Assembly (NCBI GenBank): GCA_902826505.1
Contig: CADEFG010000001.1
Location: 1 to 31,214, forward strand
DNA length: 31,214 bases
Source of the DNA: an uncultured Acidobacteriota bacterium
Lineage (GTDB): Bacteria; Acidobacteriota; Blastocatellia; Pyrinomonadales; Pyrinomonadaceae
Reading direction: 5' to 3'
Under the pieces are notes generated by a model that was given only the letters and a program-made list of their open reading frames with translations, was not told where the DNA came from and ran no database searches. Below are positions 1,331 through 31,214 of the stretch, piece after piece (the stretch's first letter is position 1; each line of letters begins with the position of its first letter). A program made the position numbers and the translations under genes.

Positions 1331-4300
1331 ATGTTCAAACTTCAACGTCTCGAAATTACAGGCTTCAAATCTTTCGCCGATTACACGGAAATCGTCTTTA
1401 CAGGCAACGGAATCACCGCCGTTGTTGGTCCAAATGGTTGCGGCAAATGCGTCAGCGGCGACACAATGATAACTTTGTCCAATGGCAAGGAAGTTGAAAT
1501 TCGTGAATTAGTCGAAAACGCATTAGAAGAATCATTTTTCAGAGAGCAATTTGATGACGGATTTTTAACGCGCGAAAATCCGCAAAACATCGAAATTCTC
1601 TCGCTTAATCCAAAAACATTAAAAATTGAACCGCGTAAAATTTCCGCTTTTATCAAACGCGAAACAACTCCGAAACTTCTTTTAATAAAAACGCTTTCGG
1701 GACGCGCAATCAAAGCCACGCCGTATCATCCTTTATTCACTCTGAAGAACGGAAAACTTCTGACACTTCGGAGCGATGAGGTAAAAAAAGGCGTAAAAAT
1801 TGCGGTTCCGCGAATCTTAAAAACTAGCGAGAAAAATATAAAATTCTCACTAAAAGATTGTTTTGATAATTTTTATGATAATGATAATGTTTTCCTTCCA
1901 TTTTCTGACAATCTCAAAGATTGGACTGAAAAAGGAAAAAATTATTTTGGAACCATTGAAAATTGGACTGAAAAAGCACAAGTTCCAAGAAGTGTCGTTG
2001 GAGGATTACGAAATAAACAATCCATAAATGTTGCCGAACTGCAAAAGCTTTCCCGTGTTTTTGAGAATCCATTTTTTGAAAATGAAATAAAATCAAAAGG
2101 AGCCGGCTTCTTGAAAATTCCGCAAAACTTTTCGCCCGATCTGGCTCGTTTTTTAGGCTTGTTAATTGCCGAAGGTCGTAATACTTACTCAAATCAAGTT
2201 TGGTTTGTTAATTCTGACGAAGCTGTTAATCAGGATTTTGAAAGGCTTGCCAGGAAAGTTTTTGATGTCAGCGTAGCTCAAAAACAATACAAAAAAGGAT
2301 CAACCGACAGTTTCATTTTTTCAAAATCGCTTTGTCAACTTTTGGACAAGTTCTTTAATTTTTCGATAAATTCTAACTCTTTTGAAAAAGAAATTCCGCC
2401 GCAGATTTTCGAGTCTGAGGCTGAAACGAAATGGTCGTTTCTTTCAGGACTATTTGAGGGCGATGCCTACGTTTGTTCGCGTCCGCAAAAAAGTAATGGA
2501 AAATTGCTAAACTATATCGAATATTCAACTGCAAGCAAGAAATTAGCCGAACAAACAATTTCTCTACTTTTACAATTAGGTATTTTTGCGTATCTTCGAC
2601 CAAAGCAAAAATATGCTTCAAATACGATTAAAAAAACCGTTCGCACATATTATTCGGTTTTAATTTACGGTTCAAAACAACTTGCAGAAACTGCTCGAAA
2701 GTTATCTTTTGTCGGGGAAAAACAAAAATCGTTGGAAAAACTCCGAAATATGGAGATTTCAACTAATCCGAATCGTGATTTAGTTCCAAGCGCAACCGAA
2801 CTCGTCCGTGAGGCTGTAAAATTAGCTCAAGTCAAAATAAAACCAAACCGTCAAAATTCCCCTAAAATCGCCGCTTATACGAGCAGAATATGTGAAGCAA
2901 GTCGAAGCGGTTTAAACGAAGTTATCGGACAAATCAAACAATTAAGCCCAAATATTCAACCGGCTGAAAATGTGTTGGAACAACTTTCGATTCTTGCAAA
3001 TTCAGATGTATTTTGGGATGAAATCGTCAACGTTGAGGAAATTGAACCAACTGAAAATTGGGTTTATGATTTGAGCATTGACGAAACTCATAATTTCGTC
3101 GCGGGAAATTTCATTGTTCACAACAGCAATGTTTCAGAAAGTATCGCGTGGGTTTTAGGCGAACAGCGCGCCAAACAACTGCGCGGCGCGGAAATGAAGG
3201 ACGTTGTCTTTCAGGGCACCAGCAAACGCAAACCGTCGGGCATGGCGGAAGTCGTTCTGCATCTCGTCCGTGACGAAGAATCAATATTCGTTGGCGATGA
3301 AGAAGATCTGAGCGACATTGACGAAGCCTTGAGCGATCTCGACGAAAACGCCGTCCAGGTCGAAGATTTTGAAACGGAAGACACAATTGGCGATCAGCAA
3401 TCAGCGGTCAGGGATCAGGAAAACGGTTTTCACACCGAAGAACTCGAAACGGCACAAGCGGCGCAAGTCGGTTCGGTTCAAATCGTCGAGAAAAAAGTCA
3501 GAACGAAACGCCATTGGAAACCAAGAAGTTTCGCGCTCGATTTTGCGCCGGGCGAAGCGATTTCCGTCACGCGAAGGCTTTATCTTTCGGGCGAAAGCGA
3601 ATATCAATTGAACGGCAAAACTTGTCGTCTGCGCGACATTCAGGATTTGTTCGCGGGCACGGGTTTGTCGGGAGCGCATTACGCGATCATCGAACAAGGT
3701 CGGATCGGTCAGATCTTATCGGCAAAACCATCGGACCGGCGCGGTTTGATCGAAGAAGCCGCCGGAATCAGCAAATTCCGCACGCGCCAACGCGCCGCCG
3801 AAGCGCGGCTTGAATCCGCCAAAAGCAATCTTTCGCGCATTTCCGATATTGTTTCCGAAATTGAAACACAGGCAAACTCGCTGCGCCGCCAAGCCGCGAA
3901 AACGCGGCGTTACAAATTATTGCGCGAAGAATTTCGTGTGCTCTTAAAAAATCTTTTCACTGCCGAAGGCGGATATTTGACCGATTTGGTCAATGAATTG
4001 GAAGAAAAGTTGACGGAAGCGGTCAAAACGGAACGCGCAATTTTTGCTCGCGTCGCCGAGAAGGACGAAGCTTTTCGCGAAGCGACCCAAAAAGCGCGCG
4101 AGTCGGAAGAAAATCTTTCGGAAATTCGTGCCCGGCACGCCGAAAATGTTCTTGAAAGAGACCGCAATGCGCGGGAAAAAACCTATCGTCAGGAACAAAT
4201 TGAAAATCTCAAAGTACGGCTCGGCATTTTGAAAGGCGAAACGCAAGCGACCGAACAGCGCCGGAAACTTTTCGATTCGGAAATCGAACGGCTCAAAAAG

Positions 4301-28434: not shown

Positions 28435-28593
28435 AAAAGCGTAATTAAAGCAGAAAAAATTCCGCTCGTTTTAGATTTCCTTATAGAAGCAAGTAGCAAA
28501 TCTTATCACGAGTTTGGTGAAGAATAAAAATGTCGGCGAGAATATTTTCGATGAACAAACGGTGAAAAATTAAACCTGAAAAATCTTTTTTTT

Positions 28594-28696
28594 CTTCGCG
28601 ACTTTGCCCCTTTGCGGGAGAAAATAAATATTTACCCGTCGAAGAATTTGCTGATCAGACTGAATTTATTTCCCGCAAAGCCGCAAAGTCGCGAAG
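28594..28696. repeat. Inverted pair of (CGCAAAGN)3-type octamer arms
   Basis: CTTCGCGACTTTGCCCCTTTGCGGGA (28594-28619) versus TCCCGCAAAGCCGCAAAGTCGCGAAG (28671-28696), 24/26 complementary. Confidence 0.85.
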
Positions 28697-28727
28697 ATTT
28701 TGTTCGTTCAATCGGCATATCTTGAGC

Positions 28728-30989
28728 TTATTTTTTCTTGACGTAGCGATTGTAGACAATGTCGGGCGTTTCGAGATTGCGCCCGTTTTTCAGATTGATC
28801 GCGAGCCGGATAAACTGCGCCATCGACCACGCGAGCGGCGTCGCCGAACCATTGCCTTCGCCGAATTTGAGCGTCGGCGGAATAAAACCGTAGTCGATCT
28901 TTTTCGGGATTTCCGCCCGATCCCAGATTTGTTCGGGAATCATCAAGCCATCGTTTGAAAAAGCGAGCATCGCATCAAGTCTGCTATAAGCCTCGGGAAG
29001 CCACCTTCTTTTTACTTTCTTTATCGGATAATTTGGGTTTTTGCGCTTTTCTTTTTCTTCCTTTACCCAATTTTCATGCCATTGCTCGGCGATCGCTAAT
29101 TCATATTGCCCGCGTTCGCCCGTCAAAAGCGCCCAAAGATGACCGTTTCCGCGCCACGTCGTATCCCAATTCCAGCGGTTTCCTTCGTAGGTGTCGCCGT
29201 AACCGTCATGATTGTAGCGATACCAGCATTCGCCGTTCGGCGTGTTGACTTTCAAAACCTCGTCAACGACTTTGAGCGATTTTTGAATCAGCGCGTCGTC
29301 GGGCGATTTGATTCCTAATCTGACCAATTCCAAAAATCCGGCGTCAACGATCTCGCGTTCGTCAAAAGTTCCGGCGCCGTTGCCGAGCTCTAATTTCTCA
29401 CCCGAATCGGGTTTGCCGTTTTGCGAAAGACGCAGATAATAATTGCCGTCGCCGTATTTGCCCGTGCGCGTCGCCGTCCAATTTTCGATGTTTGATTGCC
29501 AGTTGTCAGCAGTTTCGAGCCAACGCCGCGCTGATGCTTCGTCGCCGTTCATTTTGGCGATTTCCGCCGCGCAAACTAATCCGGCGATTTCCGCCGCGAT
29601 CGTCGAAGGCGAATAACCCGATTCTTCTTCCCAGCGTTCCTGTTTTGTAAAAGGTCCGTTTTTCGCGATGTAATCGGCTGACTTTTTGATGTTTTTCTCG
29701 TAAGTCGTTTTATCGGTTTTGCCGAGCTGATAAGCCAAAATCAGCGGATACGAAATTTCGTCCATCTGGATCGAATCGCCAACCGTGCGACCGTCGAGCC
29801 ATGAAATCTGCGGAAAACTGCCGTCGTCGCGCTGCTGATATTTGAACAAATATTCGAGTGCGCGAATCGCCGCCGCATTGTCGCCGAGTGCCATTTGCGC
29901 CGTCGCGACCTGATACAAATCGCGCGACCAGACGAGATGATAGCCGGTCGTCGTTTCGTTGCCGTTGTTGCCGCCGCCCCATGGAACGCTCAGGCTCGCG
30001 ACATTTCCGCCGCGCGTCGTTTTATCCTCGAACGCCCGCAAAACCATCGCCGCCATGTTAAACTGCGCCTGATATTTCGGCGCGACGCGCGGCAAAGTTT
30101 TCGCGTAATCAGCCCAACCTTTTTCGTATTCGGCTTTAACTTCGGCAAAACTTTTTTTGGCAGACAATACGGCATTTAACCATGCGGCATTTCCGTTAGT
30201 CGAAAAGCCCAGAGCTACAAGAAATTTTTGAGGGTTTTTGATCTTCGCCATTTGAACGACATTGCCATTTTTGGCTTCCTCATATGGCGAAACTATTTTT
30301 CCAAACTCCCGAAGTTGCTCTAACCCGTCGCTTGTTTGATAAAAACCACTTGTTGTTTCTTCTTTACCCGTTGAAATTGTTCCGTTTGAAATAAACAGCG
30401 AAGCGAAAATATTCCCATCAGTCGAAATTAATTTATCCGAATATGCCGAGTCGTGCATTCCGCTGTTATTAATAGACGGATCAAAATAAATATAGAGATT
30501 TAGATTTTTATTCTTTGTCTGGAACTGAACGTCAATTAAAAGCGAATCTCTTTCGCTGGTCGCGTAAGTTTTCGTGATCTTCCATTCGCCCGATTTTGCC
30601 GTGTTGATCTGCTGAAAGCTCAATGAATCAGGGCGCAAAGGTTTGATTTGATGATTGGCGTCGTCGCGCTCGGTTTCGACTTTTTTCGTTTTCGGATTGA
30701 CGACGACAAACTGCAAAACGTTGACGTTTGCCGTATCGACCTGCGGGTAAAAAACTTCGGTCAGCATTCCGCCTTGGAGTGTGAACCAGATTTTCGATTC
30801 GAGCGTCGCGCTCGTTCCGACGGCTTGTTTGCCCGCGCTCGACCATTGTGCGTCTTTGCCGGGCGCATTCGGCGCGAGCGTTTGCGCGTGTGAAGAGATG
30901 AAGAAGATTCCCGCCAAGGCGCAGAGGCGCAAAGTTAAAACAAAAGATGAAAATATTGTTTGCATAAAATCACTTGAATAATTCTTCAT
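28728..30989 (-). CDS. Secreted GH15 glucoamylase/glucodextranase
   Basis: APGKDAQWSSAGKQAVGT (glucodextranase-N-like), GYHLVWSRDLY, QMDE, QERWEEESG (catalytic acid region), IPEQIWD, SATPLAWSMAQF. Start is 30989 or 30965. Confidence 0.92.
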   Translation of the reverse strand: MKNYSSDFMQTIFSSFVLTLRLCALAGIFFISSHAQTLAPNAPGKDAQWSSAGKQAVGTSATLESKIWFTLQGGMLTEVFYPQVDTANVNVLQFVVVNPKTKKVETERDDANHQIKPLRPDSLSFQQINTAKSGEWKITKTYATSERDSLLIDVQFQTKNKNLNLYIYFDPSINNSGMHDSAYSDKLISTDGNIFASLFISNGTISTGKEETTSGFYQTSDGLEQLREFGKIVSPYEEAKNGNVVQMAKIKNPQKFLVALGFSTNGNAAWLNAVLSAKKSFAEVKAEYEKGWADYAKTLPRVAPKYQAQFNMAAMVLRAFEDKTTRGGNVASLSVPWGGGNNGNETTTGYHLVWSRDLYQVATAQMALGDNAAAIRALEYLFKYQQRDDGSFPQISWLDGRTVGDSIQMDEISYPLILAYQLGKTDKTTYEKNIKKSADYIAKNGPFTKQERWEEESGYSPSTIAAEIAGLVCAAEIAKMNGDEASARRWLETADNWQSNIENWTATRTGKYGDGNYYLRLSQNGKPDSGEKLELGNGAGTFDEREIVDAGFLELVRLGIKSPDDALIQKSLKVVDEVLKVNTPNGECWYRYNHDGYGDTYEGNRWNWDTTWRGNGHLWALLTGERGQYELAIAEQWHENWVKEEKEKRKNPNYPIKKVKRRWLPEAYSRLDAMLAFSNDGLMIPEQIWDRAEIPKKIDYGFIPPTLKFGEGNGSATPLAWSMAQFIRLAINLKNGRNLETPDIVYNRYVKKK

Positions 30990-31021
30990 AAATTCTTTGC
31001 GCCTCTGCGCCTTGGCGGGAA
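30908..31021. repeat. Perfect 27-bp inverted repeat with octamer-variant arms enclosing the GH15 start codon
   Basis: TTCCCGCCAAGGCGCAGAGGCGCAAAG (30908-30934) is the exact reverse complement of 30995-31021. The spacer is 60 bp. Confidence 0.95.
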
Positions 31022-31028
31022 ACGGCTC

Positions 31029-31214
31029 TTATTTCAACTTGATTTTCTTTAATGCCTTTGGAATTTCCTTGTTTTTCATAAACCATTTCCAGACATTGCC
31101 CGAACGCAGGTTTTCCGCGCTTAAAAGCGTGATGCCGACGTCGATGCCGATGACGTCTTTGTTGATCCAGCCGTTATGCGGGTTGAAAGCGTCGGTAAAA
31201 CCGTAGCGACCGTA
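31029..31214 (-). CDS. C-terminus of a 'glucoamylase family'/GH144-like glycoside hydrolase (partial)
   Basis: Reverse complement from the window end reads YGRYGFTDAFNPHNGWINKDVIGIDVGITLLSAENLRSGNVWKWFMKNKEIPKALKKIKLK*, matching the Glycoamylase/GH144 C-terminal pattern. Confidence 0.8.
   Translation of the reverse strand, partial: YGRYGFTDAFNPHNGWINKDVIGIDVGITLLSAENLRSGNVWKWFMKNKEIPKALKKIKLK

What the first reader, a model, noticed from the sequence alone, without database searches (positions are those of the whole stretch)
30908..31021. A palindromic element encloses the GH15 start codon and encodes part of its signal peptide
Seen: a perfect 27-bp inverted repeat brackets both candidate ATGs (30989, 30965). 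The inner arm translates as LRLCALAGI in the hydrophobic core of MQTIFSSFVLT-LRLCALAG-IFFISSHA|Q, which explains the atypical Arg there. An SD-like AGAGG lies in the outer arm and would be paired in the stem. Inference: repeat DNA was exapted as a secretion signal, and the mRNA hairpin may control translation or processing between the GH144-like gene and GH15.
Basis: partly seen in the sequence, partly recalled or inferred. Interest (0 to 1): 0.68.

Follow-up and report, generated by a model that had tools for sequence, protein, structure and literature searches.

The report
Repeat hairpin encodes GH15 export signal
A 114-base DNA hairpin, one of a few hundred copies of a repeat that litters this soil/wastewater acidobacterium, sits over the start of a secreted glucoamylase-type gene so that one arm is read as part of the enzyme's export signal, an arrangement kept in sister species and swapped for other repeat families in more distant ones.

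Summary
A perfect 27-bp inverted repeat (30908-30934 / 30995-31021) encloses both ATGs of the GH15 gene, and the inner arm reads in frame as LRLCALAG.

The arm belongs to a repeat family built of 8-bp CTTTGCGC units. The family has 221 arms in this genome, is strongly extragenic, and occurs in 26 of 36 Pyrinomonadaceae genomes searched.

Nine to ten orthologues in the same syntenic clade keep the arm at the same place in the signal peptide. Their two arms co-vary. The ATG 5 nt after the outer arm is conserved, so 30989 is the likely start.

A very close relative (L033) has neither arm. There the upstream stop and the ATG are 1 nt apart, and the signal peptide is unrelated.

Across 79 GH15 genes the signal peptide falls into four repeat-derived classes that switch at least 34 times on the tree. 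In 23 genes a long hairpin straddles the start.

Translation of repeat DNA as export signal is well supported. Control of translation or processing by the hairpin is untested. It is not required for the peptide, because paralogues keep the peptide without the partner arm. The SD claim is weak.

Earlier notes of this scan describe the same phenomenon on other DNA, in other phyla.

The parts
31029..31214 (-). 3' end of the upstream gene (PF10091 'Glycoamylase' family, cut by the contig end); stop codon TAA at 31031-31029
   Evidence: Pfam E 1.5e-15. The same gene lies upstream in 10 of the orthologous loci.
30995..31021 (-). Outer arm of the palindrome (TTCCCGCC..GCAAAG). It lies in the 39-nt spacer, 7 nt after the upstream stop and 5 nt before ATG 30989.
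30935..30994 (-). Loop of 60 nt. It holds the probable start codon (ATG 30989-30987), a second in-frame ATG (30965-30963) and codons 1-19 of the signal peptide.
   Evidence: The ATG directly after the outer arm is conserved in all orthologues of the clade, whereas the second ATG occurs in only one other.
30908..30934 (-). Inner arm (CTTTGCGC CTCTGCGC CTTGGCGG GAA), translated in frame as (T)LRLCALAG(I), codons 19-28
   Evidence: In every octamer-type orthologue its 3' end lies 23 nt before the Gln codon of the mature N-terminus.
30885..30989 (-). Predicted Sec signal peptide, residues 1-35, with cleavage after S-H-A (Ala35 at 30887-30885, Gln36 at 30884-30882)
   Evidence: A hydrophobic stretch is followed by small residues at -3/-1. 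The mature QTLAPxAPGKDAQW is conserved in all 79 orthologues and aligns with residue 5 of the crystallised glucodextranase 1UG9. Cleavage itself is inferred.
28728..30989 (-). GH15 glucoamylase/glucodextranase-type gene, 753 aa
   Evidence: PF09137 E 5e-69 and PF00723 E 1e-39; 1UG9 E 2e-145
28593..28697 (.). Second palindrome of the same octamer family in the usual topology, 31 nt after the GH15 stop
   Evidence: 32-nt arms, 88% complementary, 41-nt loop

Best explanation
The 114-bp element is one copy of a Pyrinomonadaceae-wide family of hairpin ('foldback') repeats. Its arms are about three 8-bp units (CTTTGCGC) capped by GGGAA or GTTAA.

At this locus the element lies across the GH15 translation start:
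- The outer arm fills most of the 39-nt spacer after the upstream PF10091 gene.
- The loop carries the real start codon (ATG 30989) and the first 19 codons.
- The ribosome reads the inner arm as LRLCALAG. This supplies the Arg and about seven residues of the hydrophobic core of a 35-residue Sec signal peptide, cleaved after SHA.

Read in this orientation, two of the three frames of the unit give oily peptides (LRLCAFAG, FAPLRLCG). A signal-peptide core accepts almost any hydrophobic sequence, so the repeat is tolerated there and has become a working part of the export signal.

Status of each step:
- Shown: family membership, the in-frame position, conservation in orthologues, and absence of both arms and peptide in a near-identical relative.
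- Inferred: that the protein is exported with this signal, and that the start is 30989.
- Secondary and unproven: the hairpin as such. My reading is that the two arms stay complementary mainly through DNA-level processes acting on palindromes, or through replacement by family copies, and that any effect on translation is a by-product.
For: Family:
- 73 hits within 3 mismatches of this arm, against 0 for the reversed control.
- 221 arms at 5 mismatches or fewer, against 0 control.
- 34 inverted pairs whose arms match each other while differing between copies.
- 3% of arms lie deep inside long ORFs, against 65% of random positions.
- The family is present in 26 of 36 genomes of the bacterial family, up to about 290 copies, and is nearly absent outside it.

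Coding:
- The only in-frame starts before the conserved domain are codons 1, 9, 20 and 25.
- The Pfam and PDB alignments begin at residues 38-39.

Conservation:
- All same-genus orthologues L010-L019 read ..LRLCA(L/F)AG IFF..SHA|QTLAP.
- In 10 orthologues with both arms, 236 of 270 stem cells pair, and 10 of 27 stem positions show changes on both sides, for example CCC/GGG to AAC/GTT.
- The context A(A/T)TTTATGAA right after the outer arm is conserved.

Empty-site comparison:
- L033 has the same upstream gene, with its last 61 aa identical, and the sequence TAA-A-ATG. Its 23-aa signal peptide is unrelated and it has no arms.
- The difference is confined to the stretch between the stop codon and the cleavage site.

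Recurrence:
- Five further real exported-protein genes of this genome carry an arm in their signal peptide: the GH15 paralogue, a GH92, an M14 peptidase, an NHL lipoprotein and a periplasmic binding protein.
- Of 79 GH15 5' regions, 28 hold an inverted repeat of at least 15 matched bp, against 1 of 395 shuffles. In 23 of them the inner arm lies in the signal-peptide coding part.
- The classes correspond to at least three genome-wide repeat families.
Against: - No signal-peptide predictor, proteomics or transcript data were available, so export, the cleavage site and the start codon are inferred.
- Removing the 27-nt arm would leave the frame intact and still give a hydrophobic stretch (..TIFSSFVL-I-FFISS..). 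The arm may therefore be a tolerated passenger rather than a needed part.
- The topology here (CCC..CAAAG, loop, CTTTG..GGG) is the minority form: 5 of 34 pairs. How the element came to enclose a pre-existing start codon is unexplained.
- Co-variation of the arms over species at about 75-80% protein identity could instead mean selection on an RNA structure.
- GH92 orthologues sampled one per genus show repeat-like signal peptides in only 2 of 18, so this is not a general rule for exported proteins.
Confidence: 0.75

Rival explanations
1. The hairpin is itself a selected post-transcriptional device. Once no ribosome occupies the loop, the 27-bp stem closes over the ribosome-binding region of GH15. 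It then blocks further initiation and/or offers RNase III a perfect duplex, so GH15 output is uncoupled from the upstream gene of the operon. The translated arm would be the price of placing one arm downstream of the start.
For: - The stem is very stable: -66 kcal/mol, z = -8.
- The outer arm ends 5 nt before the ATG.
- No sigma-70-like promoter lies in the spacer, so co-transcription is likely.
- The arms co-vary in 10 orthologues.
- The same arrangement (outer arm, ATG, inner arm in the signal peptide) recurs with different repeat families in 23 of 79 GH15 genes.
- An RNase III gene is present.
- There is an experimental precedent: a long 5'-UTR hairpin with a heptamer-repeat arm is processed by RNase III in Haemophilus hmw1 (PMC12721329).
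Against: - Paralogues and several orthologues keep the arm-encoded peptide without any partner arm.
- L033 manages with a 1-nt spacer and no hairpin.
- Hybrid cases exist in which the outer and inner arms come from different families (L074; GH92 on C737).
- Complementarity of DNA palindromes can be kept without selection on RNA.
- No RNA data are available, since the runs labelled RNA behave as DNA.
Confidence: 0.22
2. The palindrome arose in place. The T-rich coding sequence of a hydrophobic signal-peptide core and the purine-rich leader are partly complementary by nature. They were 'perfected' into a palindrome by template switching and unit slippage, rather than by arrival of a ready-made element.
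For: - The paralogue on C211 shows a weak complementarity of this sort (GGAGAAAAGGA / TCCTTTTCTTC) between leader and signal peptide.
- Unit numbers differ between orthologues, 3 against 4 units, while the frame is kept.
- No target-site duplication or linked transposase was found.
Against: - The arm sequence is that of a family with hundreds of mostly intergenic copies in many genomes.
- Flanking TTTTAAC is also shared with intergenic copies.
- An independent in-place origin of the same 25-mer is unlikely.
Confidence: 0.08
3. Slippage of the 8-bp units makes the element a phase-variable on/off switch, because gain or loss of one unit shifts the GH15 frame.
For: - 8 is not a multiple of 3.
- Unit number differs between species.
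Against: - The three units are imperfect copies, which disfavours slippage.
- All 18 octamer-type genes are in frame.
- No length variants appear in the contigs of four runs (a weak test).
Confidence: 0.03
4. The gene starts downstream of the arm, or is not exported, and the arm is merely 5' leader.
For: None beyond the general uncertainty of start prediction.
Against: - The next in-frame start after the arm is codon 75, inside the conserved N-domain.
- All 79 orthologues carry a hydrophobic stretch followed by A/S-x-A|Q directly before the conserved mature end.
Confidence: 0.02

Closest known systems
RU-2 small mobile repeat forming part of the predicted signal peptide of Yersinia pestis YPO1552 (Delihas 2007, PMC2759123)
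   Same: [quoted passage not shown] Homologues in other genera have unrelated signal peptides.
   Different: - RU-2 is a 168-bp unit without microsatellite arms.
- It is a single case in a small hypothetical protein.
- Here the host is a well-defined enzyme, the arrangement is conserved across species, the start codon sits in the hairpin loop, and different repeat families replace each other at the same gene.
Rickettsia palindromic elements (RPE; Ogata et al. 2000, cited in PMC2759123 and PMC10969869; details from my own knowledge)
   Same: A palindromic repeat family is inserted in frame into protein-coding genes and is translated and tolerated.
   Different: RPEs are 100-150 bp. They insert inside mature proteins at surface positions, not over start codons or in signal peptides, and their arms are not tandem short units.
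REP/BIME elements and their RAYT transposases (PMC3733652, PMC3479197)
   Same: They are high-copy, GC-rich, extragenic hairpins in an AT-richer intergenic background, often found as inverted pairs.
   Different: - There is no GTAG/CGTC tag.
- The arms are built of 8-bp tandem units.
- The loops reach 100 nt.
- The 13 Y1-transposase genes of this genome are not flanked by the arms.
Heptamer repeat arrays: GGGAATC of Xanthomonas and GGGGAYT of Nostoc (Rehm et al. 2015, PMC4692102) and cyanobacterial STRR (my own knowledge)
   Same: These are dispersed arrays of a 7-9-nt unit, about 3-4 units preferred. They are over-represented between co-oriented genes, close to starts and stops.
   Different: Those were described as single-stranded G4-forming arrays, not as inverted pairs forming long hairpins. 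They have not been reported as signal-peptide coding sequence.
hmw1 5'-UTR hairpin of Haemophilus influenzae (PMC12721329)
   Same: A long mRNA hairpin with one arm made of a short tandem repeat lies upstream of an exported protein gene. RNase III cleavage sets expression.
   Different: - That hairpin is entirely in the 5' UTR.
- Its repeat is a perfect, phase-variable heptamer array.
- Its function has been shown experimentally, whereas nothing is shown here.

Membership tests
Sec-type (SPase I) signal peptide | N-terminal positive charge, an uninterrupted hydrophobic core of about 7-15 residues, and small residues at -3 and -1 before the cleavage site | tested here: met
   By inspection of the translation: K2, and R21 at the border; core LCALAGIFFISS; S-H-A|Q. 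The mature end aligns with residue 5 of 1UG9. No predictor was available and cleavage was not tested.
Octamer-armed hairpin repeat family of Pyrinomonadaceae (defined here) | An arm of about three CTTTGCGC-type units capped by GGGAA or GTTAA, in many copies per genome | tested here: met
   Both arms match 73 places at 3 mismatches or fewer, against 0 control. There are 221 arms at 5 mismatches or fewer.
Octamer-armed hairpin repeat family of Pyrinomonadaceae (defined here) | The usual pair topology: CTTTG..GGG, AT-rich loop, CCC..CAAAG | tested here: not met
   This copy has the reverse order of arms, which occurs in 5 of 34 pairs.
REP elements | GTAG or CGTC tetranucleotide at one end of the palindrome (PMC3733652) | tested here: not met
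   The arms end in TTCCCGC / GCGGGAA and CAAAG / CTTTG.
REP elements | An associated RAYT (Y1 transposase) gene flanked by the repeats | tested here: not met
   There are 13 PF01797 matches in the genome. Only one has arms within 1.5 kb. The assembly is fragmented and 83% complete, so the test is not final.
MITE | Terminal inverted repeats flanked by a target-site duplication, with a related autonomous IS | tested here: inconclusive
   No consistent flanking duplication appears among the 34 pairs. TTAA or TT..AA at stem bases is itself palindromic and cannot be told from part of the arm. No parent IS was identified.
In-frame translated palindromic repeats (RPE-like co-option) | A member of a dispersed palindromic family lies inside an intact, conserved ORF in frame | tested here: met
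RNase III-processed regulatory hairpin | A duplex of about 20 bp or more in the transcript that is cleaved by RNase III with an effect on expression | not testable with these tools
   A 27-bp perfect stem and an RNase III gene are present. No RNA data are available.

The most novel reading that the evidence does not exclude
Start-straddling, microsatellite-armed palindromes may act in these Acidobacteria as exchangeable 'spacer plus signal peptide' cassettes. Repeat-directed recombination or insertion would repeatedly replace the whole stretch between the upstream stop codon and the signal-peptidase site of an exported enzyme. That would explain four repeat-derived classes and at least 34 switches among 79 GH15 genes. 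The resulting mRNA hairpin would then work as a translation lock or RNase III site that sets expression relative to the upstream gene.
Probability: 0.2. Interest if true: 0.8.

Novelty: new variant of a known kind. Interest (0 to 1): 0.52.

Why it matters
Signal peptides are usually treated as slowly drifting parts of their genes. Here the export signal of one well-known enzyme is built from generic repeat DNA. It is kept for the time it takes proteins to diverge by 20-25%, and elsewhere in the family it is replaced outright by arms of other repeat families.

This gives a concrete, testable route by which selfish or structural repeats create and remodel protein N-termini and operon junctions in an abundant but uncultured soil and wastewater lineage.

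There is also a practical side. These hairpins break assemblies: the genome is in 1030 contigs, and the window ends 193 bp past the element. They also mislead start-codon calling and produce spurious 'hypothetical proteins' such as ..PAKAQRRK.. and ..LRLCAFAG..

Tried and rejected
- **Rfam at permissive threshold.** It returned only sub-threshold matches to plant microRNA precursor models, meaning 'any long hairpin'. No known RNA family fits.
- **Transcript evidence.** The only runs labelled RNA-Seq that hold the sequence look like DNA and have 2-4x depth. No 5' ends, processing sites or strand information could be obtained.
- **RAYT/REP hypothesis.** Y1 transposases are present but are not linked to the arms.
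- **Promoter in the spacer or loop.** There is no sigma-70-like match. The only 'terminator-like' hit in the element is a trivial sub-hairpin of the inner arm.
- **Generality across exported proteins.** GH92 orthologues, sampled one per genus, mostly have ordinary signal peptides: 2 of 18 are repeat-like, and 3 have palindromes only upstream of the start. I therefore do not claim a general rule. One of these 18 loci (L124) and one of the 36 genomes counted belong to the unpublished genome G049. Neither changes any conclusion.
- **Frame preference of arms genome-wide.** There is no overall preference for a long downstream ORF in any frame. Most copies are simply intergenic.
- **ATG 30965 or the TTG codons in the arm as the start.** I considered these less likely, because only ATG 30989 and its context are conserved.
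Full report
**1. The observation**

The window is the whole of contig C1 of a 1030-contig, 5.7-Mb, 48% GC metagenome-assembled genome. Titles of the nearest public relatives place it in the Pyrinomonadaceae (Acidobacteriota, Blastocatellia).

The repeat finder reports one inverted repeat in 30700-31214. Its arms are 30908-30934 and 30995-31021, 27 nt each, 100% complementary and 60 nt apart. No such 25-mer appears in 100 shuffles. The RNA of the gene's strand folds at -66.2 kcal/mol, against -35.1 +/- 3.9 for shuffles. A contig that Logan assembled independently from a wastewater metagenome run covers 30880-31094 without a difference.

On the minus strand the order is as follows:
- the upstream gene's TAA at 31031-31029;
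- 7 nt of spacer;
- the outer arm;
- 5 nt of spacer;
- ATG 30989;
- a second in-frame ATG at 30965;
- the inner arm, from the second base of codon 19 to the first base of codon 28, read as LRLCALAG.

The description is therefore right. AGAGG (31006-31002) is in the outer arm as stated, but it ends 12 nt before the first ATG.

**2. The genes**

The 753-aa ORF is a GH15 enzyme with the bacterial N-domain: PF09137 at 5e-69, PF00723 at 1e-39, and glucodextranase 1UG9 at 2e-145. Both the Pfam and the PDB alignments start at residues 38-39, so residues 1-35 are an N-terminal extension.

The sequence ends ..IFFISSHA|QTLAPNAPGKDAQW, which is a hydrophobic stretch with small residues at -3 and -1. In-frame start codons are codons 1 and 9 (ATG), 20 and 25 (TTG, both inside the arm), and then 75, which is inside the conserved domain. 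Whatever start is used, arm sequence is translated. A start at codon 25 would leave too short a signal.

The upstream gene fragment is PF10091. To my knowledge that Pfam family includes the GH144 beta-1,2-glucanases. No sigma-70-like promoter lies between the two genes.

**3. The arm is a dispersed repeat**

- The 25-nt core of the arm occurs 73 times in the genome at 3 mismatches or fewer, and the reversed control not at all.
- A 27-nt consensus at 5 mismatches or fewer finds 221 arms, against 0 for the control.
- The arm is about three 8-bp units (CTTTGCGC, with CTCTGCGC and CTTGGCGC variants) capped by GGGAA.
- Thirty-four inverted pairs were found, with loops of 10-107 nt. Within a pair the arms match, and between pairs they differ.
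- Twenty-nine pairs have the order CTTTG..GGG, loop, CCC..CAAAG. The GH15 copy has the opposite order, as do four others. A copy of the usual order lies 31 nt after the GH15 stop, at 28593-28697.
- Only 7 of 221 arms (3%) lie deep inside long ORFs, against 65% of random positions.
- The consensus occurs in 26 of 36 genomes of the same family (2 to about 290 hits) and in 3 of 24 genomes of other families of the class, always with 0 control hits. One of the 36 genomes is the unpublished G049.
- Rfam has nothing for it.
- The genome has 13 Y1-transposase matches, but they are not flanked by arms.

**4. Orthologues of the same clade**

In the same-genus genomes, ten GH15 genes at 65-80% identity all read ..(L/W)R(L/V)C(A/G)(L/F)(A/G/V)(G/L) I(F/L)..|QTLAP. 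The GH15 gene with the PF10091 gene directly upstream forms one clade in the protein tree: the window plus ten loci.

In nine of these loci the octamer arm is present, and in most of them so is its partner. In the ten octamer-type loci that have both arms (six from this clade, four from other parts of the tree):
- the 3' end of the inner arm is always 23 nt before the Gln codon;
- 236 of 270 stem cells form pairs;
- 10 of 27 stem positions show changes on both sides, for example TTCCCGC/GCGGGAA against TTAACGC/GCGTTAA;
- unit number varies between 3 and 4 while the reading frame is kept.

The ATG directly after the outer arm, in the context A(A/T)TTTATGAA, is present in all of them. The second ATG occurs in only one other. 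I therefore take 30989 as the start. AGAGG is not conserved.

**5. An empty-site relative**

L033 lies inside this clade. Its upstream gene is identical to the window's over the last 61 residues, and its mature GH15 N-terminus is the most similar of all, at 87%.

The DNA alignment is colinear up to the stop codon and again from about 5 nt before the Gln codon. In between, L033 has TAA-A-ATG and a 23-residue signal peptide (MKSLKYFAFLSFAVCLFTCLSAA), 73 nt in all. The window has 147 nt with both arms.

By parsimony on the tree the octamer form is ancestral in this clade, and L033 is a later replacement. Its T-rich signal peptide looks like an array of another (7-nt unit) family.

**6. The peptide does not need the hairpin**

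The genome's second GH15 (contig C211) and loci L040, L088 and L103 have LRLC(A/V)FA(G/L) at the same place. Upstream they carry a purine-rich GGAGAAA-type leader instead of the partner arm.

Solo arms are also common genome-wide: 69 of 137. It speaks against an obligatory role of the stem, not against the repeat origin of the peptide.

**7. A wider pattern at this gene**

Among 79 GH15 genes of the family (78 public loci plus the two of this genome, less those cut off), the signal peptides fall into these groups:
- an octamer class (18 genes);
- a class reading ..SVSICVYLWLIFLCF.. (15 genes), often with ..PQMNTDK.. upstream;
- a class reading ..LPFYFLLFTCLSFA (17 genes);
- a class reading ..SLRLCVSAVIFAVAVSA (6 genes);
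- ordinary, unclassified ones (23 genes).

The second and third motifs are translations of arms of other repeat families. ATCTGTGTTCATCTGTGG(T/A)TAA has 16-187 copies in five genomes tested, against 0 control. The TTTTTAC-type unit has 30-55 copies in two genomes, but there the reversed control is not clean, because it hits yet another simple repeat.

An inverted repeat of at least 15 matched bp is found in 28 of 79 5' regions, against 1 of 395 dinucleotide shuffles. In 23 of them the inner arm ends within 60 nt of the cleavage codon.

On a maximum-likelihood tree of the mature proteins, the five labels need at least 34 changes. The octamer label alone needs at least 9-10. Sister genes with different classes are frequent, for example L061/L089, L036/L066 and L053/L059. 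The classes were defined by eye and by pattern on the very peptides counted, so the numbers describe the data rather than test a hypothesis.

**8. Other genes**

In this genome five more real genes for exported proteins have an octamer arm in the predicted signal peptide:
- the GH15 paralogue;
- a GH92;
- an M14 peptidase, where a single ATG upstream of the arm makes the case clean;
- an NHL-repeat lipoprotein;
- a Peripla_BP_2 lipoprotein.

Only the two frames that give FAPLRLCG or LRLCAFAG are used. The frame ending in ..PLRE and the basic antisense frames are not.

GH92 orthologues taken one per genus have repeat-like signal peptides in only 2 of 18, so this is recurrent but not general. 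One of those loci is from the unpublished G049.

**9. Mechanism**

The following points are shown:
- repeat origin of the arm;
- its in-frame position;
- its retention across species;
- absence of both arms and peptide in a close relative.

It is inferred that residues 1-35 are a working Sec signal, in which the arm supplies Arg21 and the first seven residues of the core LCALAGIFFISS. The Arg is fixed by the CGC of the unit and is present in all but one octamer-type signal peptide.

Deleting the 27-nt arm would stay in frame and still leave a hydrophobic run, so the arm may be a tolerated insertion into an older core.

A regulatory role of the stem is plausible on physical grounds. A 27-bp perfect duplex begins 7 nt after the upstream stop and ends 5 nt before the ATG, an RNase III gene is present, and there is a precedent in PMC12721329. 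I could not test it, and sections 5 and 6 show that the gene family does without the stem. I put it at about one in five.

**10. Comparison with what is known**

The nearest published case is Delihas (2007, PMC2759123). There a 168-bp enterobacterial repeat forms part of the predicted signal peptide of Y. pestis YPO1552, while homologues elsewhere have unrelated signals. Rickettsia palindromic elements are the classic in-frame palindromic repeats.

The family here fails two REP criteria, the tag and RAYT linkage. It cannot be shown to be a MITE, because no target duplication and no parent IS were found. Its arms of short tandem units recall the heptamer arrays of Xanthomonas and Nostoc (PMC4692102).

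Earlier unchecked notes of this scan describe the same thing in other phyla: hairpins with arms of 7-9-nt units whose one arm is read as a signal-peptide core. Examples are e1-1352485, e1-2199065, e1-3616284 and e1-3788850. Another note on this window describes the palindrome family as such (e1-5295324).

This case adds three things: the orthologue series with co-varying arms, the near-identical empty site, and the turnover between repeat families at one gene.

Noticed in passing
window 28593-28697: A second palindrome of the same octamer family lies in the usual topology (32-nt arms, 88% complementary, 41-nt loop), 31 nt after the GH15 stop and before aroA. The GH15 gene is therefore bracketed by two copies.
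   Followed up: partly
L014 / L098 (orthologue in G015), about 100-390 nt upstream of the mature N-terminus: In this orthologue the loop between the upstream gene and the inner arm is about 240 nt longer. It contains a perfect GC-rich hairpin of about 18 bp (TGTCCCTGAAGGGGACGA..TCGTCCCCTTCAGGGACGG) and other small hairpins, and the outer octamer arm seems displaced or lost. This looks like a nested insertion of another element.
   Followed up: no
G000 contig C737 (L117/L122), GH92 gene start; also L074: These are hybrid arrangements. A partner-type arm of the ATCTGTG family (read as MNIDRHRF / PQMNTDK) lies upstream, while the signal peptide carries an arm of a different family. The two sides seem to be replaced independently.
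   Followed up: no
G000 contigs C619 (about 497-540) and C158 (about 3768-3815): Octamer arms ending in GCGTTAA stop only 5-13 nt before the ATG of cytoplasmic genes (a tgt-like gene and a helicase-like gene). The family evidently sits very close to start codons in general, not only in exported proteins.
   Followed up: no
window 30934/30995, run X1: One low-depth metagenome contig joins the two arms with 27 other letters (GCGCAAAGCACTCGGCTCTTCGCGCGC) in place of the 60-nt loop. It is probably another copy or another organism, since only 23 letters lie on the shorter side. It could also be a variant allele.
   Followed up: no
G061 and G063/G065 genomes: The reversed control of the TTTTTAC-type pattern itself has 57+67 hits in one complete genome. 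This points to yet another abundant simple-unit repeat family (unit like TTTTCAT / TTTTCCG) in these bacteria.
   Followed up: no
G000, 13 places: There are thirteen Y1-transposase (IS200/IS605 or RAYT-type) matches, six of them strong and about 150 aa long. They are not linked to the octamer arms. What they mobilise was not examined.
   Followed up: partly
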